Below, piece after piece: positions 54,600-64,000 of a stretch of DNA of 64,000 bases. Position numbers and translations under genes: made by a program. The stretch is from Planctomycetota bacterium (GTDB taxonomy: Bacteria > Planctomycetota > UBA1135 > UBA2386): positions 9,883 through 73,882 of the forward strand of contig JANQJF010000024.1 in NCBI GenBank assembly GCA_028281765.1. The letters are read 5' to 3'. Positions within the stretch are counted from its first letter, which is position 1; each line of letters starts with the position of its first letter. The notes below the pieces were generated by a model. That model searched no databases and was not told the DNA's origin. It saw nothing but the letters and a program-made list of their open reading frames with translations.

Positions 54600-56009
54600 A
54601 TGTCCGCCGCGACCGCGATCCTCGTCACGCTCGTCGTCTACAAGGTCGTGCTGCTCGCGATCGGCTTCGTCGCGGAACGCTGGACGCGCGACCAGGCCGA
54701 CTTCGTGCTCGGCGGCCGCGGCCTCGGACCGCTCGTCGCCGCAATCAGCGCGTCCGCGAGTTCGTCGTCGGTCTGGACCCTGCTCGGCGTCAGCATGTAC
54801 GCCTACAACTCGGGCCTGTCCGCGATCTGGCTGTTCCCTGCGTGCGTCGGCGGCTTCGCGCTCAACTGGTACGTCATCGCGCCGCGACTCCGCCGCCACA
54901 GCCTGCAGACCGGGACGCTGACGCTGACCGAAGTGCTCGCCGGCTCGAAGGATCGCTCCGGCTACCGCGCGATCATGGTGCTGGCGTCGCTGATGATCCT
55001 CTTCGCGCTGATGGTCTACGTCGCGGCGCAGCTGCAGGGCGCGGGCAAACTGTTCTCGTCCGTCCTGGAAGACCTGACCGAAGAGCCACCGTCGGCGACT
55101 TGGATGATCATCGTCGGCGCGGCGATCGTCGTCGCGTACACGATCCTGGGTGGCTTCTGGGCCGTGAGCATCACCGACACGCTCCAGGGACTGATGATGG
55201 CGCTGACTGCGGTCGTCCTGCCGATCGCCGCAGTCGCGGAGCTCGGCATGAGCGAACTCTGGAGCGGGATCGGAAACGTCGAGGATGCGGGGTTCGACGA
55301 GCTGTTCGGTGACCGCGCCGGTTTCGCCGCGTGCATCGGCTTCGTGGCCGGACTCCTCGGCATCGGACTCGGCTACCCCGGGCAACCGCACGTCGTCAAT
55401 CGCTTCATGGCGCTGCGCGACGACGCCGCGGTCGTCTCGGCGCGACGCTACGCCATGGCCTGGGCCATCCTCGTCTACACCGGGATGATCACGCTCGGCC
55501 TCGCGGGTCGTGTCCTGCACAGCCGGCTCGGCGAAGGAGAGGAGATCTTCTTCGTGCTGACGACCGAGCTGTTCTCACCCGTGATCGCCGGAGTCATGGT
55601 CGCAGCCGTGCTTTCCGCGATCATGTCGACCGCCGACAGCCAGCTGCTGGTCGGGGCGTCGTCGATCACCAATGATCTCGCGCCGGGCCGCGGCAACGAC
55701 CTGGCGCGCTCCCGCATCGTCGTGCTGCTACTGACCGCGGCTTCCGTCGCCGCCGCGGTCGTGATGCCGAAGGAGATCTTCGACAACGTGCTGTTCGCGT
55801 GGGCCGCGATGGGTGCGGCGTTCGGTCCGGTGCTGTTCTTCGTGCTGTGGAAGGGTGGGCTCTCGGCGCCGGCGACGCTGGCGACCATGGTCGTCGGATT
55901 CGTCGCCGCCGTGTCGGCCCACGTCGCGGGCGCACCGGGCTGGGTCAAACAAGTCGTGCCCTACGTGCTCGCGTTCGTGGTCGCGATCGCGATGCGCGCG
56001 CGACGCTGA
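54600..56009 (+). CDS. Sodium:solute symporter, PutP-like
   Basis: DFVLGGRGLGP, YTILGGFWAVSITD, GLGYPGQPH..RFMA, LSAIMSTADSQLL. Confidence 0.92.
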   Translation: MSAATAILVTLVVYKVVLLAIGFVAERWTRDQADFVLGGRGLGPLVAAISASASSSSVWTLLGVSMYAYNSGLSAIWLFPACVGGFALNWYVIAPRLRRHSLQTGTLTLTEVLAGSKDRSGYRAIMVLASLMILFALMVYVAAQLQGAGKLFSSVLEDLTEEPPSATWMIIVGAAIVVAYTILGGFWAVSITDTLQGLMMALTAVVLPIAAVAELGMSELWSGIGNVEDAGFDELFGDRAGFAACIGFVAGLLGIGLGYPGQPHVVNRFMALRDDAAVVSARRYAMAWAILVYTGMITLGLAGRVLHSRLGEGEEIFFVLTTELFSPVIAGVMVAAVLSAIMSTADSQLLVGASSITNDLAPGRGNDLARSRIVVLLLTAASVAAAVVMPKEIFDNVLFAWAAMGAAFGPVLFFVLWKGGLSAPATLATMVVGFVAAVSAHVAGAPGWVKQVVPYVLAFVVAIAMRARR

Positions 56010-56180: not shown

Positions 56181-56537
56181 GTGGCGCACGATGCGAAGGC
56201 GGGCAAGCCTGCCCCGCGAGCCGAGGCGCTTAGCACCGCTGAGACCTCGGCTCGCAGTTCTGATAGTTCGACCCCCGCCGTCGTCGTCGGTGCGCTCGCC
56301 CGAGTCGACGTGTCCCAGCGCGAGTCGGTGATCGCCGCGCTCGCACGCCTGCCGGGCGTGTCGACCTTCGCCATCGCCGACGACATGCAGCTCGGCGTCC
56401 TGTTCGAAGACGACTCGCTCGAGGGTGCGCATGCGCGCCTCCAACAGGACGTGAACCCGACGCCGGGCGTTCTCGCGGTGTGGCCCGTGGCGGTCGAACT
56501 CGACGATCCCGACCCCGTGAAGCCGGAGGCCCCATGA
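56181..56537 (+). CDS. napD: NapD-like chaperone (start uncertain: 56079 or 56181)
   Basis: VVVGALARV..ALARLPGV..LGVLFE..PGVLAV; ATGA overlap with napA. Confidence 0.7.
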   Translation: MAHDAKAGKPAPRAEALSTAETSARSSDSSTPAVVVGALARVDVSQRESVIAALARLPGVSTFAIADDMQLGVLFEDDSLEGAHARLQQDVNPTPGVLAVWPVAVELDDPDPVKPEAP

Positions 56538-58858
56538 CCAACTCCCGCCGAGAATTCATGAAGACGTCCGCGATGCTCAGCGTCGCGGCGTTCGCCGAGG
56601 GACCGCGCTGCATGTCGAACGTGCTCGCGAAGTCGGGAGACGACATCGAGTGGGTCAAGTCGGTGTGTCGCTTCTGCGGCACGGGCTGTGGAGTGATCCT
56701 CGGCGTGCGCGACCGCAGGCTCGTCGCGCTGCGCGGCGACCCCAAGCACCCGACGACGAAGGGCCTCGTCTGCGCCAAGTCGCTGTTCCTCCCGAAGATC
56801 GTCCACGCGGAAGACCGGCTGCAGCACCCGATGATCCGCAAGAACGGCGAGCTGCAGCGCGCGAGCTGGGAGGAGGCGATGAGCCTCGTCGCCGAAAAGT
56901 TCGCGACCGCGATCCAGAAACACGGCAAGGACTCGGTCGCCTACTACGGCTCGGGCCAGGCGATGTCCGAGGAGAGCTACCTCGCGAATCGCCTCTTCAA
57001 GGGCGGCATCGGCACGAACAACGTCGAAGGCAACCCGCGCCTGTGCATGGCGTCGGCCGTCGGCGGCTACGTGACGACGTTCGGCAAGGACGAGCCGATG
57101 GGCTGCTACGACGACATCGAGCACGCGAAGGTGTTCTTCCTCGTCGGCTCGAACACCGCAGAGTGCCACCCGACGATCTTCGACCAGATCCTGTCGCGGA
57201 AGCAGAAGAACCACGACGTGCTCGTGATCGTGCTCGACCCGCGCTACCAGCCCGTGGGTTCGATCGCGGACATCTACATGCAGCCGAAGCCGGGCATGGA
57301 CCTCGCGGTGTTCCACGCGATCGCGCAGGTGATCGTCAAGGAAGGGCTCTGCGACATGGAGTTCATCGACAAGAACGTGCAGTTCAAGATCGTCGAGAAC
57401 GGCAAGCCTGAGCAAGTCGACTTCGCAACCTACGAGAAGTTCCTGGGTGACCACTTCACTCCCGAGCAGGCCGAGCTGATCACCGGCGTGCCGGCGCAGG
57501 ACATCCGCGAGGCCGCCCGCCTGATCGCGCGCGGTCCGACGATGTCGCTCTGGACGATGGGCCTCAACCAGCGCACCCGCGGCGTCTGGGCCAACAATCT
57601 GATGCACAACATGCATCTGATCACGGGCCAGATCGGCAAGCCGGGCGCGACGCCGTTCTCGCTGACCGGGCAACCCAACGCGTGCGGCGGCGTGCGCGAC
57701 ACCGGCAGCCTCTGCCACATCCTCCCCTACGGCCGGTCCGTCAAGAAGGCGAAGCACCGCGAGGAGATGGAGAAGCTCTGGGGCAGCGAGCCCGGCACGA
57801 TCCCTGCGAAACCCGGCCTGCACACGATCGAGATGTTCCGCGCGCTCGGGCGCGACGAGATCCAGGCGATGCTCGTCCTGACGACGAACCCCGGACACTC
57901 GCTGCCGAACTGCGGCGAGCACCGCGACGCGATGGGCAAGCCGCGGCCGAACAAGCCGTTTGTCTGCGTGATCGATGCCTACCCGACGCGCACGACGGAA
58001 CTCGCCGACGTGGTCCTGCCGGCTGCGATGTGGAGCGAGAAGAGCGGCGTCTTCGGCATGTCCGAGCGGCGCTACCAGTACCACCCGCAGGTCTGCGACG
58101 CGCCCGGCGAGGCCCGCAGTGACTTCGACGTGTTGCTCGACTTCGCGAAGCGCCTCGAAGACGCGGGCGTCGTGCCGAAGGGCTACGTCTCGAGCAAGTT
58201 CAAGACGACCGACGACGTCTGGGACGAGATGCGCGAGGCCTCGAAGAACACGGCGTACGACTTCTACGGCATGACGCGCGCGCGCCTCAAGAAAGAGCGC
58301 GGCGTGCGCTGGCCCGCCCCCACAACGGATCACCCCGGGACGGCGCGGCGCTTCGTCAAGGGCGACGACCCCTGCCTCGACGCGGGTCCGTACGCAGATC
58401 GCTCGCTCGCGGAGGGCGACGTGAAGTTCTACGCCGCGCCCGACCATCGTGCGATCGTCTGGCTGCGACCGCTCGAAGGACCGGCCGAGCCGGCGGACGA
58501 GGAGTATCCGTTCTCGCTGTCGACCGGCCGCGTGCTCGAACACTGGCATACAGGCACGATGACGATGCGCGCGCCGGAGCTGCGCGCCGCCTATCCCGAG
58601 CCGTTCGTCGAGATCCACACGGCCGACGCGCGCGAGCTCGGCATCCGCAGCGGGATGCCCGTGCGGATCCAGTCGCGACGCGGCGAAGCCGTGATCAAGG
58701 CGCGCGTCGTCGACATGCCGCAGCGCGGCACCGTATTCGTGCCGTTCTGCTGGGAGGACGACGCCGGATTCATCAACCGCGTGACGATCGACGCGTACGA
58801 CCCGGGCTCGAAACAGCCGGAGTACAAGATCTGCGCGGTGCAACTCTCGCTGGCGTGA
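56534..58858 (+). CDS. napA: Periplasmic nitrate reductase catalytic subunit
   Basis: Tat SRREFMK, CRFCGTGC, NPRLCMASA, LTGQPNACG, TGRVLEHWHTGTMT, DPGSKQPEYKICAV. Confidence 0.93.
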   Translation: MTNSRREFMKTSAMLSVAAFAEGPRCMSNVLAKSGDDIEWVKSVCRFCGTGCGVILGVRDRRLVALRGDPKHPTTKGLVCAKSLFLPKIVHAEDRLQHPMIRKNGELQRASWEEAMSLVAEKFATAIQKHGKDSVAYYGSGQAMSEESYLANRLFKGGIGTNNVEGNPRLCMASAVGGYVTTFGKDEPMGCYDDIEHAKVFFLVGSNTAECHPTIFDQILSRKQKNHDVLVIVLDPRYQPVGSIADIYMQPKPGMDLAVFHAIAQVIVKEGLCDMEFIDKNVQFKIVENGKPEQVDFATYEKFLGDHFTPEQAELITGVPAQDIREAARLIARGPTMSLWTMGLNQRTRGVWANNLMHNMHLITGQIGKPGATPFSLTGQPNACGGVRDTGSLCHILPYGRSVKKAKHREEMEKLWGSEPGTIPAKPGLHTIEMFRALGRDEIQAMLVLTTNPGHSLPNCGEHRDAMGKPRPNKPFVCVIDAYPTRTTELADVVLPAAMWSEKSGVFGMSERRYQYHPQVCDAPGEARSDFDVLLDFAKRLEDAGVVPKGYVSSKFKTTDDVWDEMREASKNTAYDFYGMTRARLKKERGVRWPAPTTDHPGTARRFVKGDDPCLDAGPYADRSLAEGDVKFYAAPDHRAIVWLRPLEGPAEPADEEYPFSLSTGRVLEHWHTGTMTMRAPELRAAYPEPFVEIHTADARELGIRSGMPVRIQSRRGEAVIKARVVDMPQRGTVFVPFCWEDDAGFINRVTIDAYDPGSKQPEYKICAVQLSLA

Positions 58859-58870
58859 TCGGAGGAACCC

Positions 58871-59521
58871 ATGAAGCGCAGTGGTATCGCACTCGTCCTC
58901 CTGCTCGCGTTCTGCGCGAGCAACGGATCGGGATGCCGGACGGATTCACGCGCCGAAGCGCCGCTCGAGACCCGCGATCGGATTGGTCACGTGGTCGCCG
59001 CGGAGGCGACGACGACCCAGGATCCTGACAGGCTAGACGGTGTCGACCCGGCGGTGAAGGTCGCGGGACCGCGCATCCGACCAGGACACGAGTACCCGCC
59101 GACGCTCTCCGACACGAAGTGGCACCGTGACGCGTGGTCGCACAACGACTGCCTGCGCTGCCACGAAACCGGAGTCGGCGACGCGCCGCAGCTCGAACAC
59201 GTGGGACTCCCCTCGATCTTGACCGAGGCGAAGTGCCGGACGTGCCACGTGTTCATCCCCGGTTCGCCGAAGTCCGAACGCGAACCCGCGCCGAGCCCGT
59301 TCGAGCCGTGGGCGTTCCCGCCGATGATCCCGGCGTCGAGCTCTCACGTCGCGACGTGGCAGCGCGACGACTGCCTGATGTGCCACGAATCCGGCCTACG
59401 GGACGCCCCGCGGGTCGTGCACCGCAACATGCCGCGGCTCTTGCTGGAGGTGAAGTGCCGCACGTGTCACGTGCAGGTGCGCGCGGTCGAGGCCACTTGG
59501 CGGAGCCACAGACAACGGTGA
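58871..59521 (+). CDS. Tetraheme cytochrome c made of two NapB-like diheme units
   Basis: CLRCH, CRTCH, CLMCH, CRTCH in duplicated PP..H..CL.CH..AP..H..CRTCHV. Confidence 0.8.
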   Translation: MKRSGIALVLLLAFCASNGSGCRTDSRAEAPLETRDRIGHVVAAEATTTQDPDRLDGVDPAVKVAGPRIRPGHEYPPTLSDTKWHRDAWSHNDCLRCHETGVGDAPQLEHVGLPSILTEAKCRTCHVFIPGSPKSEREPAPSPFEPWAFPPMIPASSSHVATWQRDDCLMCHESGLRDAPRVVHRNMPRLLLEVKCRTCHVQVRAVEATWRSHRQR

Positions 59522-60237
59522 ACCAGGGCACGCCACAGCCTCGTGTCGATCGCTTCCGCGGCCATCGGTTCAGCGCGTACTTCGTCGCACCGGTGTTCTT
59601 CGCGCTGGCGGCATGGTTCTGGTTCGGACCGGAGCTCGAAACGCTCCCCGAAGCAAACGACACCAGCGTGCACGCGAGCCTGCTGAGCACCGAGCCGCAT
59701 CGGACGATCCTCGGCGACCCGCCACGCGTCCACGTCAACGGCTTCGACCGCACCTGCATGGAGTGCCACCGCCTGTTCCAGTCGGAAGAGGCGAAGACGC
59801 AGAAGCTGCTGCAGCACGAACACATCCGCATGGAGCACGGCCCGAACGTCGACTGCTACATCTGCCATGACGCGGAAGATCGGGACCAACTCACTCTCGG
59901 CAATGGCGTAACCACGAAGTTTACCGACGTCGTGTCGCTGTGCGCACGCTGCCACCCATCGATCGTCGACGATTGGAAGCTCGGCAGTCACGGCCGCACG
60001 AACGGATACTGGAGCGCCGACCGCGGCGAAGTGCGCAAGCTCGTCTGCACCGAGTGCCACGACCCGCACGCACCGCGCACGCCGGCGATGTCGAAAATCG
60101 AGCCGCTGCCGGCTCCGAACGGGTGGCGCCAGGGCAATCCCGCACCGGACCACCACGACAGCCACGGCCACAAGCGCGACCCGCTCCGTGAGGCCTTGCG
60201 GCGCGCGAGCGAACACCACGAAAGCCACGACAAATGA
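59518..60237 (+). CDS. Membrane-anchored tetraheme cytochrome c
   Basis: N-terminal TM; CMECH, CYICH, CARCH, CTECH; GTGA overlap. Confidence 0.85.
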   Translation: MNQGTPQPRVDRFRGHRFSAYFVAPVFFALAAWFWFGPELETLPEANDTSVHASLLSTEPHRTILGDPPRVHVNGFDRTCMECHRLFQSEEAKTQKLLQHEHIRMEHGPNVDCYICHDAEDRDQLTLGNGVTTKFTDVVSLCARCHPSIVDDWKLGSHGRTNGYWSADRGEVRKLVCTECHDPHAPRTPAMSKIEPLPAPNGWRQGNPAPDHHDSHGHKRDPLREALRRASEHHESHDK

Positions 60238-61193
60238 GCGCTGACACCCAACAGCAGCAGAAACCGGGCGTCAGCCGGCGCAGCTTCTTCCGCGGCGCAC
60301 TCGGCGCGGCGGGCGGCATGGCCGCGGTCACGACCGCACTCAAGCCGCTGCTCGAGTTCGACACGTCGGAGTACACGCTCGAGGGTTTCCTCCAGCGTCA
60401 CTACAAGGAGATGACGCCAGAGGAGCTCGACGCCGCGCTCGCGCGCATCGCGGAGGCCGTCGAAAAGCGCTACGAGGTGCGCCCCGAGCTCCGCGACGTC
60501 AAACCGATGGACGGCGTCGAGTTCGGCTACGCGCTGAACCTCAGTCGCTGCATCGGCTGCCGCAAGTGCGTGCACGCGTGCGTCGCCGAGAACAACCAGA
60601 GCCGCAGTCCGGAGATCCAGTACATCCGCGTGCTCGAGATGCCGCGCGGGTCGATCGACATGGAGAAGGGCGATCACGCATACGACCGCCCCACCGTGCC
60701 GGACGCGGACCACTTCTACATGCCGGTGCAGTGCCACCAGTGCGCGAACCCACCGTGCGTCAAGGTCTGCCCGGTCGAGGCGACGTGGTCCGAGGACGAC
60801 GGCATCGTCGTGATCGACTACGACTGGTGCATCGGCTGCCGCTACTGCGAAGCCGCGTGCCCGTACTGGGCCCGCCGCTTCAACTTCGCCGAGCCGCAGA
60901 TCCCGAAGGAGGACATCAACCCGGACATGTCCTACCTCTCCAACCGCCCGCGCCAGAAGGGCGTCATGGAGAAGTGCCACTTCTGCCTGCACCGGACGCG
61001 CGAAGGCAAGCTGCCCGCCTGCCTCGAAGTCTGCCCGGTCGGCGCGCGCAAGTTCGGCAACCTGCTCGACCCCAAGAGCGAGGTCTCGCAGATCCTGCGC
61101 ACCAAACACGTGTTCGTCCTCAAGGAGGAAGTCGGCACGCTGCCGCGCTTCTTCTACTACTTCGACGACGACTATCACGGGGAGAGGAAGTAG
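60234..61193 (+). CDS. Tat-exported four-cluster 4Fe-4S protein (NrfC/DsrO family)
   Basis: SRRSFF, CIGCRKCVHAC, CHQCANPPCVKVCP, CIGCRYCEAACP, CHFC..PACLEVCP. Confidence 0.92.
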   Translation: MSADTQQQQKPGVSRRSFFRGALGAAGGMAAVTTALKPLLEFDTSEYTLEGFLQRHYKEMTPEELDAALARIAEAVEKRYEVRPELRDVKPMDGVEFGYALNLSRCIGCRKCVHACVAENNQSRSPEIQYIRVLEMPRGSIDMEKGDHAYDRPTVPDADHFYMPVQCHQCANPPCVKVCPVEATWSEDDGIVVIDYDWCIGCRYCEAACPYWARRFNFAEPQIPKEDINPDMSYLSNRPRQKGVMEKCHFCLHRTREGKLPACLEVCPVGARKFGNLLDPKSEVSQILRTKHVFVLKEEVGTLPRFFYYFDDDYHGERK

Positions 61194-61196
61194 CGC

Positions 61197-62456
61197 ATGC
61201 GCGACTACGGCCGCTTCCTCTGGCGCTGCGCTCGGATCAGCTTCGTCGGCGACTGGCGCTACCACACGTGGATGCTGACGCTGTCGGTCATCGCGCTGCT
61301 CGGGCTCAACGCGTACGCCAAGCAGCTCGTCGACGGCCTCGCAACGACCGGCATGACCGACCAGGTCTCGTGGGGCCTCTACATCGCGAACTTCACGTTC
61401 CTCGTCGGCATGGCGGCGGCCGCGGTGATGCTCGTCATCCCGGTCTACGTCTACGGCAAGCACGAGATGCACGAGCTCGTCGTGTTCGCCGAGCTGCTCG
61501 CCGTCGCGGCGATCGTGATGTGCCTGCTGTTCGTCACCGTCGACCTCGGGCGCCCGGATCGGTTCCTGCACCTGTTCCAGCGCTTCAACTTCCCGATCTC
61601 GATGTTGACCTGGGACGTCGTCGTGCTGAACGGGTACCTGCTGCTCAACATGCACATCTGCGGGTACCTGATCTACTGCGCATACAAGAAACGGAAGCCG
61701 GGCAAGTGGTTCTACTACCCGTTCGTGATCGTCGCGATCGGCTGGGCGATCAGCATCCACACGGTCACGGCGTTCCTGTACGTCGGCCTCGGCGGCCGAC
61801 CGTTCTGGAACTCGGCGATCATCGTGCCGAAGTTCCTCGCGTCTGCGTTCGCCGCGGGCCCGGCGTTCATCATGCTGACGCTGCAGCTGATCCGGTACTT
61901 CACGGATCACAAGGTCCCGCAGGGCGCGATTCGACTGCTGCAGAACATCGTCACCGTCGCGCTGACGATCGACCTGTTCCTGCTCGGCAGCGAGCTGTTC
62001 ACCGAGTTCTACGCCGACTCGCATCACATCTCGTCGCTCGTCTACCTCTGGTTCGGCAAGGACGGATACCACGCGCTGGTGCCGTGGATCTGGACGTCGG
62101 TCGCCATGAGCGTGACGGCGTTGCTGATCTTCTACCTGCCGACCAAGCGCTCGATGTTCTTCGTCAACATCGCGTGCGTGCTTCTGATCGTCGGCATCTG
62201 GATCGAGAAGGGCATGGGCCTCGTGATCCCCGCATTCGTGCCGTCCCCGCTCGGCGAAATCGTCGAGTACGTGCCGACCCTCAACGAGACGCTGGTCTGC
62301 TTCGGGATCTGGGCGTTCGGACTGATGATCTACACGATCTTCGTGCGCATCACGATTCCGGTGCTCTCGGGCCAGCTGACTCACGACCGCATCTACCACA
62401 CGGAGGTCGCCACCGACTCGGCGACCCATCCCCCGACCGAAGGAAGCCTGTCATGA
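61197..62456 (+). CDS. NrfD/PsrC-family membrane subunit (DsrP-like)
   Basis: TGMTDQVSWGLYIANFTFLVG, DLGRPDR, SIHTVTAFL, IWIEKG; about ten TMs. Confidence 0.92.
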   Translation: MRDYGRFLWRCARISFVGDWRYHTWMLTLSVIALLGLNAYAKQLVDGLATTGMTDQVSWGLYIANFTFLVGMAAAAVMLVIPVYVYGKHEMHELVVFAELLAVAAIVMCLLFVTVDLGRPDRFLHLFQRFNFPISMLTWDVVVLNGYLLLNMHICGYLIYCAYKKRKPGKWFYYPFVIVAIGWAISIHTVTAFLYVGLGGRPFWNSAIIVPKFLASAFAAGPAFIMLTLQLIRYFTDHKVPQGAIRLLQNIVTVALTIDLFLLGSELFTEFYADSHHISSLVYLWFGKDGYHALVPWIWTSVAMSVTALLIFYLPTKRSMFFVNIACVLLIVGIWIEKGMGLVIPAFVPSPLGEIVEYVPTLNETLVCFGIWAFGLMIYTIFVRITIPVLSGQLTHDRIYHTEVATDSATHPPTEGSLS

Positions 62457-63901
62457 AACGCAATGTCGTCCTCGGGCTGATGCTCGCGATGCCGTTCGTC
62501 TGCGCCGCCACCGTCTCGGCGCAGGCCATCGGACTCCCCGAGATCAGCGAGAAGACCAAGGAGTGCATGGAGTGCCACAAGAAGGCGCACCAGTCCATCT
62601 ACCAGCAGTGGGGTGACAGCAAGCACTACCGCGCGAACGTCGGTTGCTACGAGTGCCACGCGGCCGAGAAGACCGACAAGGACGCGTTCAACCACTACGA
62701 CTCGATCATCTCGGTGATCGTCAGCCCGCGCGACTGCGGCCGCTGCCACCCGAAGGAAGTCGAGGAGTTCGAAGGCTCCCACCACGCGAAGGGCGGACGC
62801 ATCCTCGGCTCACTCGACAACGTGCTCGCGGAAGTCGTCGAGGGCAACCACGGCATGGTCACGCCGGGCTTCCCCGAAGGCGTGTCGGCCGCGGCAGTCA
62901 ACGGCTGCTGGCAGTGCCACGGCTCAGAAGTGAAGGTCCTCCCAGGCGGCAAGCTCGACCCGGCGACGTATCCCAACAGCGGCATCGGCCGAATCAACCC
63001 GGACGGCTCCGAGGGCTCCTGCAACGCGTGCCACGTCCGGCACGAGTTCTCGGCGGCCCAGGCGCGTCACCCCGACACGTGCGGCAAGTGCCACCTCGGC
63101 CCGGACCACCCGCAGAAGGAGGTCTACGAGGAGTCGAAGCACGGCATCTCGTTCTTCGCCAACATCAACAAGATGAACCTCGACAACGAGAAGTGGATCG
63201 TCGGCGAGGACTACCACGCGGCACCCACGTGCTCCACGTGCCACATGTCCGCGACGAAGAACCAGCCGGTGACGCACGATATCGGCATGCGCATCTCGTG
63301 GAACAACCGGCCGGTCGTGTCGATCCGCCCCGAGCAATCGGACGCGAAGATGGGACTCCCGGGCAAGGACGTGCCGTGGCAGGTGCGCCGCCAAAACATG
63401 CAGGACGTCTGCGTGAGCTGCCACAACACGAACTGGGTCGACAACTTCTACGTGCAGTATGACGGCCTCATCGACCTCTACAACGAGAAGTACGCGAAGC
63501 CCGGCAAGTCGCTCTACGACCTCGCGAAGCCGCTGCGTCCGTACAAGGCGCCGTTCTCGCACAAGATCGACTTCATCTGGTTCGAGCTCTGGCACCACGA
63601 GGGCCGGCGCGCGCGCCACGCGGCCGCGATGATGGCGCCCGACTACACGCACTGGCACGGCACCTACGACCTCGCGAAGAACTTCTACAGCGAATACATC
63701 CCCGAGCTGAACGAGCTCGCCGAGCACGCGATGCAGTCGAACGACGCGGCCAAGATCGAAGGCGCCAAGAAGCTGAAGGCCATGATCGACAAGGTCATGA
63801 ACTCCGAGAACCACAAGTGGGCTCTCGACAAGATGGATCCGGCCGAGAAGGCCAAGCGCGACAAGGCGCGGGCCGAGTTCTTGAACCGCTACAAGAAGTG
63901 A
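62453..63901 (+). CDS. hao: Octaheme HAO-family cytochrome c (epsilon-Hao-like)
   Basis: Signal peptide; eight CxxCH (CMECH, CYECH, CGRCH, CWQCH, CNACH, CGKCH, CSTCH, CVSCH); GPDHPQ.E.Y.ESKHG; WHHEGRR; APDYTHWHG. Confidence 0.92.
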   Translation: MKRNVVLGLMLAMPFVCAATVSAQAIGLPEISEKTKECMECHKKAHQSIYQQWGDSKHYRANVGCYECHAAEKTDKDAFNHYDSIISVIVSPRDCGRCHPKEVEEFEGSHHAKGGRILGSLDNVLAEVVEGNHGMVTPGFPEGVSAAAVNGCWQCHGSEVKVLPGGKLDPATYPNSGIGRINPDGSEGSCNACHVRHEFSAAQARHPDTCGKCHLGPDHPQKEVYEESKHGISFFANINKMNLDNEKWIVGEDYHAAPTCSTCHMSATKNQPVTHDIGMRISWNNRPVVSIRPEQSDAKMGLPGKDVPWQVRRQNMQDVCVSCHNTNWVDNFYVQYDGLIDLYNEKYAKPGKSLYDLAKPLRPYKAPFSHKIDFIWFELWHHEGRRARHAAAMMAPDYTHWHGTYDLAKNFYSEYIPELNELAEHAMQSNDAAKIEGAKKLKAMIDKVMNSENHKWALDKMDPAEKAKRDKARAEFLNRYKK

Positions 63902-63924: not shown

Positions 63925-64000
63925 ATGCGCGAACGACTGCAGCTGACCGAGGAAGACGGACTGAGGGCTCTCGAGGACCACGCTCGAGACAAGGCGGCGT
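63925..64000 (+). CDS. Start of downstream hypothetical gene (truncated by window)
   Basis: GGAG then ATG; MRERLQLTEEDGLRALEDHARDKAA open to window end. Confidence 0.5.
   Translation, partial: MRERLQLTEEDGLRALEDHARDKAA

What the first reader, a model, noticed from the sequence alone, without database searches (positions are those of the whole stretch)
56181..63901. Single operon for non-canonical nitrate ammonification: NapDA + multihemes + NrfCD/DsrOP-like module + reductive Hao
Seen: seven co-oriented genes with 4-nt overlaps or gaps of 12 nt or less, carrying 16 CxxCH motifs in three cytochromes, with no napC, napGH or nrfAH among them. Known: NapA reduces nitrate to nitrite, NrfD-family proteins exchange electrons with quinones, and epsilon-Hao of Campylobacterota acts reductively on nitrite and hydroxylamine. 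Inference: a self-contained quinol-to-nitrate-to-ammonium chain in an apparently heterotrophic planctomycete, which nrfA-based DNRA surveys would miss. The operon continues past the window, so absences are provisional.
Basis: partly seen in the sequence, partly recalled or inferred. Interest (0 to 1): 0.82.

Follow-up and report, generated by a model that had tools for sequence, protein, structure and literature searches.

The report
Nitrate reductase plus quinol-linked Hao operon
One operon of an uncultured planctomycete joins a periplasmic nitrate reductase to a Hao-type octahaem cytochrome and a membrane quinol dehydrogenase, a likely NrfA-independent route from nitrate to ammonium that standard gene surveys do not count.

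Summary
Seven co-oriented genes lie at 56181-63901 with junctions of -4, 12, -4, -4, 3 and -4 nt, and three cytochromes carry 16 CxxCH motifs. An eighth gene starts at 63925, and the operon ends there.

The molybdoenzyme is a true NapA of the monomeric Desulfovibrio type. The octahaem belongs to the IhOCC (reductive) branch of the HAO family.

The conserved unit is a five-gene module: a membrane-anchored tetrahaem, a DsrO/NrfC-like FeS protein, a DsrP/NrfD-like protein, Hao, and an unknown 145-aa protein. It stands directly upstream of Hao in 62 of 69 related loci. Nap genes of two lineages join it repeatedly.

The genome (88.8% complete) shows no NrfA, NirK, NirB, sirohaem reductase, NarG, NapC, NapG or Hcp. 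Across 401 genomes of the phylum, Hao-type genes and NrfA rarely coincide (10 of 99 against 98 of 302).

The unknown protein is predicted to clasp the twin-arginine signal of the FeS subunit, which makes it a candidate new Tat chaperone.

The product (ammonium or NO) and the absence of the tyrosine cross-link are not proven.

A similar nap-hao-nrfD cluster is in print for Thermosulfurimonas. This scan also met the five-gene module earlier on other DNA. I class it as a new variant of a known kind.

The parts
56181..56537 (+). NapD-like chaperone gene (118 aa from the GTG at 56181; the frame is open from 56043)
   Evidence: Pfam NapD scores 18.2 bits, E 0.0027, below the cut-off of 28. The gene overlaps napA by 4 nt. 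tblastn finds homologues of 39-47% identity beside NapA in 9 related loci.
56534..58858 (+). NapA, periplasmic nitrate reductase catalytic subunit (774 aa, monomeric Desulfovibrio type, Tat signal SRREFMK)
   Evidence: Pfam finds Molybdop_Fe4S4, Molybdopterin and Molydop_binding. The NCBIfam NapA model is the best of 27 families at 675 bits, under its cut-off of 904. PDB 2jio/2nap, D. desulfuricans NapA, matches at E 5e-240 over residues 39-771. The stretch around the Mo-ligand cysteine, NPRLCMASAVGGYVT, is identical.
58871..59521 (+). cyt4a: periplasmic tetrahaem cytochrome c, an internal duplication of a NapB-like dihaem unit (NapM/NapB analogue)
   Evidence: It has 4 CxxCH and a signal peptide. 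It follows NapA in the related loci at 45-64% identity. It is weakly similar (E 5e-4), repeat by repeat, to the tetrahaem that follows canonical NapA in L047; that protein hits Pfam NapB at 30.5 bits, above 25.1.
59518..60237 (+). cyt4b: tetrahaem cytochrome c with one N-terminal membrane helix; first gene of the conserved module
   Evidence: It has 4 CxxCH and a hydrophobic stretch at residues 18-36. 63 of 64 homologues carry four motifs. It stands upstream of FeS-NrfD-Hao in 62 of 69 loci. No curated family passes its cut-off. The fold search was uninformative.
60234..61193 (+). Tat-exported four-cluster FeS protein, DsrO/NrfC-like
   Evidence: The twin-arginine motif is at residues 15-20. 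NCBIfam DsrO scores 182.7 against a cut-off of 200; QrcC, TtrB, ArrB and NrfC score lower. The best solved relatives are ArrB, PsrB and ACIII ActB.
61197..62456 (+). NrfD-family integral membrane quinol/quinone-interacting subunit, DsrP-like
   Evidence: Pfam NrfD E 7.6e-38. NCBIfam DsrP scores 407.7, above its cut-off of 350. About nine hydrophobic segments are present. Solved relatives are distant only (ACIII ActC, E 3.8e-8).
62453..63901 (+). Hao: octahaem cytochrome c of the HAO family, IhOCC branch (482 aa, Sec signal); proposed nitrite/hydroxylamine reductase
   Evidence: It has 8 CxxCH. Pfam Multi-haem_cyto scores 84.2, above 21.9. PDB 4qo5 matches at E 2.5e-47 (3.1e-63 with the profile), against 3e-24 for HAO 1fgj. 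Asp218-His219 align with the Asp-His pair of HAO. It is the only HAO-family gene in the genome.
63925..64000 (+). 5' end of the eighth gene ('dnORF', 145 aa, runs to 359 nt beyond the window): cytoplasmic protein of no known family, candidate Tat-signal chaperone of the FeS subunit
   Evidence: Searches give the gene. No Pfam or NCBIfam family matches. The AF2 model has pLDDT 95.9. No PDB fold match reaches E <= 0.001. The gene is found only where the FeS gene is present: 35 of 44 such loci against 0 of 5 without it. The complex model scores 0.72 against a best control of 0.25, with contacts on FeS residues 15-20.

Best explanation
The eight genes encode a periplasmic nitrate-to-ammonium electron chain fed from the menaquinol pool.

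The DsrP/NrfD-like membrane subunit oxidises quinol. Electrons pass to the Tat-exported DsrO/NrfC-like FeS protein and then to the membrane-anchored tetrahaem cyt4b. From there they reach two terminal reductases:
- NapA, through the NapB-like tetrahaem cyt4a, which reduces nitrate to nitrite.
- The IhOCC-type octahaem Hao, which reduces nitrite (and hydroxylamine), most probably to ammonium.

The module therefore plays the part of NrfBCD. It also replaces NapGH/NapC, which this operon has lost. NapD matures NapA. The eighth protein holds the twin-arginine signal of the FeS subunit before export.

Shown here: gene order, family assignments, conservation of the module, its repeated linkage to nap genes, its near-exclusion with nrfA, and the lack of other recognised nitrite reductases in the genome.

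Inferred: the direction of electron flow, the shared quinol dehydrogenase, ammonium as the product, and whether the chain serves respiration, assimilation or both.
For: **Family assignments**
- NapA: PDB 2jio E 5e-240, with the stretch around the Mo-ligand cysteine identical.
- Hao: closest to IhOCC, E 3.1e-63 against 3e-24 for HAO. IhOCC is called an octahaem nitrite reductase without the P460 haem in PMC9250108 (passages).
- Tyr-less HAOs act as reductases, and the epsilon-HAOs reduce nitrite and hydroxylamine in vitro (PMC8042395, abstract and passages).
- DsrP is above its cut-off and NrfD Pfam matches.

**Synteny**
- cyt4b + FeS + NrfD lie directly upstream of Hao, on the same strand, in 62 of 69 loci that have 3300 nt or more upstream.
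- These loci are the best 80 of at least 596 species genomes holding a close relative.
- NapA of the window's lineage is within 10 kb in 9 of the 80 loci. A canonical NapA (L047: 930.9 bits, above 904) is within 10 kb in 18 of 80.
- In the phylum sample, 28 of 99 Hao-bearing genomes have a canonical NapA, against 33 of 302 others. By my reading of the coordinates, the two genes lie within about 1.2 kb in 23 of those 28.

**Loss of napGH**
- napG and napH follow napA-cyt4a in 6 of the 9 same-lineage loci.
- They are absent from the window's operon. In the genome, napG gave no tblastn hit and napH only weak partial ones.

**No alternative enzymes found in the genome (88.8% complete)**
- NrfA, NapC, NirK, NarG, NirB, Hcp and NIR_SIR were not found.
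- The only other large NapA-like gene is a selenocysteine formate dehydrogenase.

**Complementary distribution with NrfA**
- NrfA occurs in 10 of 99 genomes with a Hao match at E <= 1e-60, against 98 of 302 without one.
- For close orthologues the figures are 1 of 22 against 107 of 379. Related genomes are not independent, so these ratios overstate.

**Physiology in print**
- Thermosulfurimonas dismutans and Dissulfuribacter thermophilus ammonify nitrate without nrfA.
- They carry napMADGH beside a locus of a HaoA-homologous multihaem, an NrfD protein, an FeS protein and a membrane cytochrome c (PMC5276818, passages; PMC9676032, passages).

**The eighth protein**
- Complex model score 0.72, best control 0.25. 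That mark was reached by 58 of 80 solved complexes and 2 of 110 mismatched pairs.
- The runs share at least 66% of their contacts and the partner's pLDDT is at least 89.
- The interface includes FeS residues 15-20, the RRSFF motif.
Against: - No experiment or expression data exists for this operon.
- The product is unknown. The one biochemically studied Tyr-less HAO of the same phylum (Kuenenia HAOr) makes NO, not ammonium (PMC8042395).
- Absence of the cross-link tyrosine could not be settled. HMMER and hhalign do not align the C-terminal domain with HAO. Tyr398 and Tyr405 lie within a few residues of the likely position.
- NapA scores below the NCBIfam equivalog cut-off (675 against 904). 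DsrO is just under its cut-off, and NapD is under Pfam's.
- Hao stands alone, without the module, in 6 of 69 loci; a seventh (L045) lacks only a cyt4b hit. In the window's own family and order, a second Hao type sits beside canonical NapA with no quinol module nearby (L117-L119). The module is therefore not obligatory for Hao-Nap function.
- The genome is 88.8% complete, so absences are provisional.
- The homology of the Thermosulfurimonas cytochrome to this Hao rests on the paper's words. I did not compare sequences.
Confidence: 0.6

Rival explanations
1. The architecture is the same, but Hao reduces nitrite by one electron to NO (like Kuenenia HAOr) or stops at hydroxylamine. The operon would then serve a denitrification-like or detoxifying route rather than ammonification.
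For: HAOr, a Tyr-less HAO from a planctomycete, reduces nitrite to NO (PMC8042395, abstract). An Rrf2-family regulator gene stands directly upstream of the module in 5 of 80 loci. My reading of it as the NO-sensing NsrR kind is recalled, not tested.
Against: The window's Hao is far closer to IhOCC (E 3e-63) than to HAOr 6h5l (E 2e-22). No Hcp was found to deal with hydroxylamine. The near-exclusion with NrfA fits an ammonium-forming substitute better. Thermosulfurimonas, with a similar cluster, makes ammonium. NO reductase genes were not searched for.
Confidence: 0.15
2. The chain makes ammonium mainly for assimilation of nitrate nitrogen, or as an electron sink, and is not an energy-conserving respiration.
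For: The genome shows no NirA/NirB-type sirohaem nitrite reductase and no assimilatory nitrate reductase. This operon is therefore the only recognised way to use nitrate nitrogen.
Against: All parts are periplasmic and quinol-linked, as in respiratory Nap/Nrf systems. NrfD-type subunits are treated as energy-transducing (PMC8076601, passages). The two roles do not exclude each other, and sequence alone cannot separate them.
Confidence: 0.1
3. Hao and its module act on another periplasmic acceptor (sulfite, tetrathionate, polysulfide, metals), and the adjacency to nap is incidental.
For: MccACD pairs an octahaem sulfite reductase with NrfC/NrfD-like subunits (PMC8076601). The FeS and NrfD proteins score best against DsrO/DsrP. 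The Thermosulfurimonas authors name sulfur compounds as an alternative.
Against: Linkage to NapA recurs with two NapA lineages and two Hao types (27 of 80 loci; 23 of 28 genomes). The Asp-His pair of HAO is kept. No dsrMK or other sulfur genes lie among the eight genes.
Confidence: 0.07
4. Hao works oxidatively (hydroxylamine or hydrazine to the quinone pool), with the NrfD module reducing quinone.
For: The cross-link position could not be fixed by alignment, and tyrosines lie near it. NrfD modules can run either way (Qrc, recalled).
Against: All three MAFFT modes put Trp401, not Tyr, opposite the tyrosine column shared by 14 of 14 anammox-genome HAO paralogues. Tyr398 is Trp or Phe in close representatives. 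Tyr405 is also Tyr in IhOCC, which has no P460. No AMO was found, though the control was silent. The hydrazine dehydrogenase model matches only this Hao, at E 7e-15.
Confidence: 0.03

Closest known systems
napMADGH + four-gene locus of Thermosulfurimonas dismutans / Dissulfuribacter thermophilus (PMC5276818; also strain F29, PMC9676032)
   Same: One cluster holds a Nap system with a tetrahaem NapM. It also holds a multihaem said to be homologous to HaoA, an NrfD-family protein, a periplasmic FeS protein and a membrane cytochrome c. nrfA is absent. The authors hypothesise nitrite reduction, and the organisms make ammonium from nitrate.
   Different: There napG and napH are present, two unknown periplasmic proteins intervene, and no counterpart of the eighth gene is mentioned. 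The hosts are thermophilic sulfur bacteria of other phyla. I could not compare sequences, so orthology is untested. No biochemistry exists for either cluster.
Escherichia coli NrfABCD quinol:nitrite oxidoreductase
   Same: The logic is the same: NrfD-type membrane subunit, then a Tat-exported FeS protein, then an electron-transfer multihaem cytochrome, then a periplasmic multihaem nitrite reductase.
   Different: The catalytic subunit is an HAO-family octahaem with CxxCH throughout, not pentahaem NrfA with CxxCK. The NrfC equivalog score is 114.6 against a cut-off of 377.6. The cytochrome partner is a membrane-anchored tetrahaem, not pentahaem NrfB. Here the module probably also feeds NapA.
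IhOCC of Ignicoccus hospitalis (PDB 4qo5)
   Same: It is the closest solved relative (E 3.1e-63 with the profile). It is an octahaem of the HAO clade without the P460 cofactor and is called an octahaem nitrite reductase (PMC9250108).
   Different: It is archaeal. Its identity to the window's Hao was not computed. Its gene context was not examined here. The window's family has Tyr398 where IhOCC has Trp.
Epsilon-Hao / reverse-HURM pathway of Nautilia profundicola and other Campylobacterota (PMC3701875; Haase et al. 2017, not read)
   Same: NapA plus a Tyr-less Hao replace NrfA in nitrate ammonification. Epsilon-HAOs reduce nitrite and hydroxylamine in vitro (as quoted in PMC8042395).
   Different: By recall, the redox partner there is a NapC/NrfH-type tetrahaem, and Hcp is invoked. 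Here the partner is an NrfCD/DsrOP-type module and no Hcp was found. No epsilon-Hao sequence was at hand for comparison.
Desulfovibrio desulfuricans Nap system (monomeric NapA, NapM; PDB 2nap/2jio)
   Same: The NapA alignment printed spans nearly the full length, with an identical stretch around the Mo-ligand cysteine. A tetrahaem stands in place of dihaem NapB.
   Different: No napC, napG or napH is present here. The tetrahaem is a tandem of NapB-like units whose relation to NapM was not tested.
DsrMKJOP (DsrJOP half) and MccACD
   Same: DsrP passes the equivalog cut-off and DsrO nearly does. A membrane-anchored multihaem accompanies them, as DsrJ does. In MccACD an octahaem reductase is wired to NrfC/NrfD-like subunits.
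   Different: No DsrM or DsrK is present. The cytochrome has four haems, not three. The catalytic octahaem is of HAO type, not MccA type.

Membership tests
NapA (periplasmic nitrate reductase) | Twin-arginine signal, N-terminal 4Fe-4S domain, molybdopterin and dinucleotide-binding domains | tested here: met
   SRREFMK lies at residues 4-10. PF04879, PF00384 and PF01568 all pass their cut-offs.
NapA (periplasmic nitrate reductase) | Mo-coordinating cysteine in the NapA context, without the Sec/Cys-His of formate dehydrogenases | tested here: met
   NPRLCMASAVGGYVT is identical to D. desulfuricans NapA in the printed alignment. The genome's formate dehydrogenase has ...RAUH... instead. That this cysteine is the Mo ligand is recalled.
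NapA (periplasmic nitrate reductase) | Score above the curated NCBIfam equivalog cut-off | tested here: not met
   NF010055 scores 675 bits against a cut-off of 904; TIGR01706 scores 651 against 930. NapA is still the best of 27 families. The models fit the heterodimeric type; the monomeric D. desulfuricans enzyme matches at 801 bits.
NapD | Pfam NapD domain; small gene abutting napA | tested here: inconclusive
   PF03927 scores 18.2 bits against a cut-off of 28. The gene overlaps napA by 4 nt and is conserved beside NapA in 9 loci.
HAO family, reductive (IhOCC / epsilon-Hao-like) branch | Eight CxxCH motifs and the HAO-type multihaem domain | tested here: met
   8 motifs. PF13447 scores 84.2, above 21.9. 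The solved relatives found are IhOCC, HAO, HOX, HAOr and HDH only.
HAO family, reductive (IhOCC / epsilon-Hao-like) branch | Conserved Asp-His pair after the sixth haem motif | tested here: met
   CGKCHLGPDH aligns with CATCHSGVDH of 4fas. D218 and H219 are invariant in 24 of 24 family rows. Their catalytic role is recalled.
HAO family, reductive (IhOCC / epsilon-Hao-like) branch | No tyrosine at the haem cross-link position | tested here: inconclusive
   HMMER and hhalign stop before the C-terminal domain. All three MAFFT modes place Trp401 (His400 one column earlier) opposite the Tyr column shared by 14 of 14 anammox-genome paralogues. Tyr398 varies among Tyr, Trp and Phe in close representatives. 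That this column is the cross-link site is inferred. A structural superposition is needed.
HAO family, reductive (IhOCC / epsilon-Hao-like) branch | Nitrite/hydroxylamine reduction to ammonium | not testable with these tools
   Needs an enzyme assay.
Epsilon-Hao of Campylobacterota | Sequence grouping with characterised epsilon-Hao proteins | not tested
   No epsilon-Hao sequence could be obtained through the tools. The best 150 representatives carry no names.
NrfABCD | Pentahaem NrfA with a CxxCK active-site haem | tested here: not met
   No CxxCK was found in any of the seven products. No PF02335 match above its cut-off exists in the genome.
NrfABCD | NrfC and NrfD subunits | tested here: inconclusive
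   NrfD Pfam is met (131.3 bits). The NrfC equivalog scores 114.6 against 377.6. It works like NrfCD but is not a member by the equivalog test.
DsrMKJOP | DsrP and DsrO together with DsrM, DsrK and trihaem DsrJ | tested here: not met
   DsrP scores 407.7, above 350. DsrO scores 182.7, below 200. No DsrM or DsrK lies among the eight genes, and the cytochrome has four haems.
Tat redox-enzyme maturation chaperones (NapD/TorD/DmsD kind) - for the eighth gene | Cytoplasmic protein that binds the twin-arginine signal peptide of its partner | tested here: inconclusive
   It has no signal peptide and no known family. The complex model scores 0.72 against a best control of 0.25, with contacts on FeS residues 15-20. 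This is prediction only.

The most novel reading that the evidence does not exclude
The five-gene module is an uncharacterised quinol:nitrite oxidoreductase with its own new family of Tat-signal chaperone. It takes the place of NrfA as the ammonium-forming nitrite reductase across much of Planctomycetota, Verrucomicrobiota, Omnitrophota and neighbouring phyla. In compact operons like this one, its single quinol dehydrogenase feeds both NapA and Hao, so one membrane module drives all eight electrons from nitrate to ammonium. nrfA/onr-based censuses would then miss a large share of nitrate ammonifiers. About a quarter of sampled planctomycete genomes carry a Hao of this branch (99 of 401, relatives at E <= 1e-60), and these genomes mostly lack nrfA.
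Probability: 0.4. Interest if true: 0.75.

Novelty: new variant of a known kind. Interest (0 to 1): 0.55.

Why it matters
Whether nitrate ends as ammonium (kept in the ecosystem) or as gas (lost) is usually judged from nrfA counts. The survey read here (PMC10716430) screens nrfA and onr only.

If this module reduces nitrite to ammonium, a widespread gene set has been left out of those budgets. Close relatives occur in at least 596 species genomes, and a Hao of this branch occurs in 99 of 401 sampled genomes of the phylum.

The compact operon also offers a clean test case. It has one quinol dehydrogenase, two terminal reductases, no napC/napGH, and no other recognised nitrite reductase in the genome.

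The eighth gene may add a new family to the few known Tat proofreading chaperones.

Tried and rejected
- **Expression.** The look-up of sequencing runs listed no RNA holder. The three rows are DNA runs of one coral-metagenome study, and one may be the source of this DNA. Read laying was therefore not used, and co-transcription stays untested.
- **Cross-link tyrosine.** The phmmer search, a full-length profile, a C-terminal-only profile against PDB sequences, and hhalign against 11 anammox HAO paralogues all failed to align the C-terminal domain with HAO.
- **Representative search.** It returned 1812 relatives, but the best 150 stop at E 4e-43 and hold no canonical HAO.
- **cyt4b fold.** The AF2 model has pLDDT 76.4. 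Foldseek against the PDB gave nothing meaningful, best E 1.5.
- **dnORF fold.** No match reached E <= 0.001. The top weak hits (E 0.1-1) are zincin-like proteins such as IrrE/PprI and selecase, but the protein has no HExxH motif. The ESM Atlas gave only unnamed clusters.
- **Phylum search with the NapA model at E <= 1e-150.** It missed the window's own NapA, whose match comes in pieces. Monomeric NapA could not be counted that way.
- **AMO search.** It was negative, but its control rang nowhere.
- **NirS.** Only short marginal propeller-like hits appeared (29.5 bits over model positions 8-85). I read them as not NirS.
- **Promoter and terminator scan.** It was uninformative: 0 promoter-like sites and 9 terminator-like sites against 4.8 expected.
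- **Papers read in passages that did not bear on the cluster.** PMC11896075, PMC8940962, PMC10066038 and PMC12285233.
- **Literature searches.** Searches found no biochemical study of a Hao linked to NrfCD/DsrOP-type subunits.

Full report
**1. What is there**

The + strand of 56181-63901 carries seven tightly packed genes:
- a NapD-like gene (56181-56537),
- napA (56534-58858),
- a tetrahaem cytochrome, cyt4a (58871-59521),
- a second tetrahaem with one N-terminal membrane helix, cyt4b (59518-60237),
- a Tat-exported FeS protein (60234-61193),
- an NrfD-family membrane protein (61197-62456),
- an octahaem cytochrome, Hao (62453-63901).

The junctions are -4, +12, -4, -4, +3 and -4 nt. The three cytochromes hold 4 + 4 + 8 = 16 CxxCH motifs. 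The genome-wide rate in open frames of 200 aa or more is 0.048 per 1000 residues, which predicts about 0.05 motifs in these 937 residues.

The window lies in contig C83 of an 8.78-Mb, 129-contig assembly that is 88.8% complete.

Reading past the window's end shows one more + strand gene, 23 nt after hao. I call it dnORF (145 aa). It meets a convergent membrane-protein gene tail to tail. The operon therefore has eight genes and ends there.

**2. The nitrate reductase**

The molybdoenzyme has the Fe4S4, molybdopterin and dinucleotide-binding domains and a twin-arginine signal. NCBIfam ranks NapA first of 27 families, but below the equivalog cut-off (675 against 904 bits).

Against solved structures it matches the monomeric NapA of Desulfovibrio desulfuricans over nearly its whole length (E 5e-240, 801 bits). 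E. coli NapA scores 581 bits. The stretch around the Mo-ligand cysteine is identical. I accept it as a NapA of the monomeric class. The curated models appear tuned to the heterodimeric class.

cyt4a is an internal duplication of a NapB-like dihaem unit. It shows weak repeat-by-repeat similarity to the tetrahaem that follows canonical NapA in locus L047, and that protein passes Pfam NapB.

The NapD assignment is weak by Pfam (18.2 against 28 bits). It is supported by position and by conservation beside NapA in 9 loci.

**3. The octahaem**

Pfam places it in the HAO-type multihaem family. Its best solved relative is 4qo5 (E 2.5e-47; 3.1e-63 with a 24-sequence profile). HAO follows at 3e-24, HAOr (6h5l) at 2e-22, HOX at 2e-17 and HDH at 6e-15.

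PMC9250108 (passages) names 4qo5 as IhOCC, an octahaem nitrite reductase. It groups IhOCC with HAO/HDH in one clade and states that IhOCC lacks the P460 haem.

The Asp-His pair after the sixth haem motif is conserved.

PMC8042395 (abstract and passages) states three things:
- HAOs without the tyrosine cross-link are reductases.
- Four epsilon-HAOs reduce nitrite and hydroxylamine in vitro.
- Kuenenia HAOr reduces nitrite to NO.

**4. The cross-link question**

I could not settle it. Sequence and profile methods do not align the C-terminal helical domain with HAO.

To get oxidative HAOs from a tool, I searched 401 genomes of the phylum with the hydrazine dehydrogenase model. From anammox genomes I extracted 14 HAO paralogues, and from other planctomycetes 2 Hao-like proteins.

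MAFFT was run in three modes on the tails after the last haem motif. The input was 10 of my 24 family rows plus all 16 fetched proteins.
- All 14 anammox paralogues have Tyr in one column.
- All 10 family rows and the 2 other planctomycete proteins have Trp there (Trp401, with His400 one column earlier).

The Thr-Tyr...Gly pattern of the oxidative proteins also fits Thr399-His400...Gly403 if one gap is allowed.

Two tyrosines lie nearby:
- Tyr398 is Trp or Phe in close representatives.
- Tyr405 is also Tyr in IhOCC, which has no P460.

That the shared Tyr column is the cross-link site is my inference. The profile A4 left out L109-L111, L115 and L116, partly on the motif itself, so its invariant Thr-Tyr is not independent evidence.

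Verdict: the evidence leans towards no cross-link, but this is not proven.

**5. The conserved unit is a five-gene module**

The search for related loci found at least 596 species genomes encoding a close relative of Hao. The best 80 loci (64-79% identity) are MAGs and one single-cell genome. Their titles name Planctomycetota, Verrucomicrobiota, Omnitrophota, Sumerlaeota, Hydrogenedentales and a few others.

By tblastn with the window's proteins:
- cyt4b, FeS and NrfD lie directly upstream of Hao, on the same strand, in 62 of the 69 loci with 3300 nt or more upstream.
- Six loci have Hao alone. One lacks only a cyt4b hit.
- dnORF is detected in 54 of the 78 loci with 700 nt or more downstream.

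Among the 49 loci with ample flanks, dnORF occurs in 35 of 44 that have the FeS gene and in 0 of 5 that lack it.

The FeS and NrfD proteins score best against DsrO (182.7 against 200) and DsrP (407.7, above 350). Their only solved relatives are distant: ArrB, PsrB and ACIII subunits.

The 2021 review of NrfD-containing complexes lists 14 complex types. It contains neither 'hydroxylamine' nor 'octaheme' (PMC8076601, term search and passages). Its MccACD entry is an architectural analogue.

**6. Linkage to nitrate reduction**

NapA of the window's lineage (69-79% identity) lies within 10 kb of Hao in 9 of the 80 loci, upstream or downstream of the module. A canonical NapA (about 40% identical to the window's; 930.9 bits in L047) with a NapB-like tetrahaem lies within 10 kb in 18 of 80. 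In loci such as L047, L071 and L090 it is inserted between hao and dnORF.

In the sample of 401 phylum genomes:
- 99 have a Hao relative at E <= 1e-60, and 22 of these are close orthologues (E <= 1e-220).
- 28 of the 99 have a canonical NapA at E <= 1e-150, against 33 of 302 others.
- By my reading of the coordinates, NapA lies within about 1.2 kb of Hao in 23 of the 28.

Two genomes of the window's own family and one of its order carry a different, simpler triad: a second Hao type (about 45% identical), canonical NapA and a NapB-like tetrahaem. No quinol module lies within 7 kb (L117-L119). The window's eight-gene version is thus one of several arrangements.

**7. What is special about the window**

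In 6 of the 9 same-lineage loci, napG and napH follow napA-cyt4a. In two the contig ends. In one (L022) they are absent.

The window has no napGH in the operon. In the genome, napG gave no tblastn hit and napH only weak partial ones. NapC/NirT is also missing.

The only quinol-oxidising device in reach of NapA is therefore the cyt4b-FeS-NrfD module. This makes a shared quinol dehydrogenase the simplest reading. It is an inference.

**8. Genome-wide context (88.8% complete, so provisional)**

- No NrfA above its cut-off.
- One HAO-family gene only.
- No NirK (19), NarG (20), NirB (21), Hcp (22) or sirohaem NIR_SIR domain (38).
- NirS-model hits are short and marginal (18).
- The only other large NapA-like gene is a formate dehydrogenase with an in-frame TGA at the active site.
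- The hydrazine dehydrogenase model matches nothing but this Hao (E 7e-15).

Hao is thus the only recognised candidate nitrite reductase.

**9. Complementarity with NrfA**

In the same 401 genomes, NrfA (PF02335, E <= 1e-15) occurs in 108.
- It occurs in 10 of the 99 Hao-bearing genomes, against 98 of the other 302.
- It occurs in 1 of the 22 genomes with a close orthologue, against 107 of 379.
- Leaving out the two anammox families gives 6 of 88 against 92 of 291.

Related genomes are not independent, so the Fisher values overstate. The pattern is what a functional substitute for NrfA would give.

**10. The eighth protein**

dnORF has no Pfam or NCBIfam family and no signal peptide. It folds with high confidence (pLDDT 95.9) into a fold with no significant PDB match.

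I folded it together with the FeS protein, using my own alignments. The FeS alignment had 27 rows; L032 and L019 were dropped. The dnORF alignment had 31 of the 55 sequences available.

Results:
- The model supports binding: score 0.72, best control 0.25.
- That mark was reached by 58 of 80 solved complexes and 2 of 110 mismatched pairs.
- The runs share at least 66% of their contacts, and the partner's pLDDT is at least 89.
- The confident contacts include FeS residues 15-20 (the RRSFF twin-arginine motif) and the most conserved residues of dnORF (102-110, 134-141).

I read it as a candidate Tat proofreading chaperone of a new family. This is a prediction, not a demonstration.

**11. Is it known?**

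Six full-text searches found no biochemical study of a Hao wired to NrfCD/DsrOP-type subunits.

The architecture has been seen, however.
- PMC5276818 (passages) describes Thermosulfurimonas dismutans and Dissulfuribacter thermophilus, two bacteria shown there to ammonify nitrate without nrfA. They carry an 11-gene cluster: napMADGH, two unknown genes and a four-gene locus. That locus encodes a multihaem homologous to Nautilia HaoA, an NrfD protein, an FeS protein and a membrane cytochrome c. The authors suggest it reduces nitrite.
- PMC9676032 repeats this for strain F29.
- PMC10732223 (section 10 read) notes hao and napAB in many Planctomycetota MAGs. In two MAGs it notes a multihaem-FeS-NrfD cluster downstream of nap, without linking it to hao. 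Four of my loci come from that study's MAGs.
- This scan also met the five-gene operon before, in another genome (e1-5077381).

I therefore class the finding as a new variant of a known, still untested, kind. The new points are:
- its breadth across the PVC phyla,
- the compact napGH-less operon,
- the near-exclusion with NrfA,
- the candidate chaperone.

**12. Mechanism and odds**

- Most likely (0.6): menaquinol passes electrons to the NrfD-like subunit, then the FeS protein, then cyt4b. From there they go to NapA through cyt4a (nitrate to nitrite) and to Hao (nitrite to ammonium).
- NO or hydroxylamine as the product: 0.15.
- A mainly assimilatory role: 0.1.
- Another substrate: 0.07.
- Oxidative operation: 0.03.

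No expression data could be had; no RNA holder was listed.

Noticed in passing
L091:5092-7215 (own genome, contig C90): A formate dehydrogenase alpha subunit is read through an in-frame TGA at the active site (...RAUH...). This implies selenocysteine use in this planctomycete genome. It is the only other large NapA-like gene.
   Followed up: partly
L117:7326-11786, L118:3427-7769, L119:7057-11575 (genomes of the window's own family and order): A second Hao type (about 45% identical to the window's) is followed directly by canonical NapA and a NapB-like tetrahaem, with no FeS/NrfD module or dnORF within 7 kb. By my reading of the coordinates, the same adjacency holds in 23 of 28 phylum genomes that have both genes.
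   Followed up: partly
L020:6473-6928 and the same position in L022, L038, L056, L027: An Rrf2-family regulator gene stands directly upstream of cyt4b, on the same strand, in 5 of 80 loci. The window has none beside its operon. The only hit in the own genome is 31% identical, on contig C10.
   Followed up: partly
FeS homologues (e.g. L014:7663-8691, L033:7646-8704, L040:7640-8683) and dnORF homologues (e.g. L014:11503-11973, L035:11468-11989, L080:11377-11913): Cys/Gly-rich tails appear in some relatives: ahead of the twin-arginine motif in several FeS homologues, and at the C-terminus of several dnORF homologues. They do not obviously co-vary, and the window's copies lack them.
   Followed up: no
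own genome, whole: Open frames with 11, 19 and 23 CxxCH motifs exist elsewhere in the genome, so the organism has further large multihaem cytochromes.
   Followed up: no
G186:C12:28847-30295 and G393:C23:37244-38665: Two genomes of the anammox family that pass the hydrazine dehydrogenase cut-off also carry a close orthologue of this Hao (66-67% identity). This fits the 'Brocadiaceae' title of the best locus, L011.
   Followed up: no
window 54600-56009 (+): A 469-aa multi-pass membrane protein gene, co-oriented, ends 171 nt before the NapD-like gene. By eye it looks like a sodium:solute symporter. It was not tested against any family library.
   Followed up: no
L039, L051, L052, L057, L063, L087: Hao orthologues (67-72% identity) stand alone, with no module genes, nap genes or dnORF within the 10-kb flanks.
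   Followed up: partly
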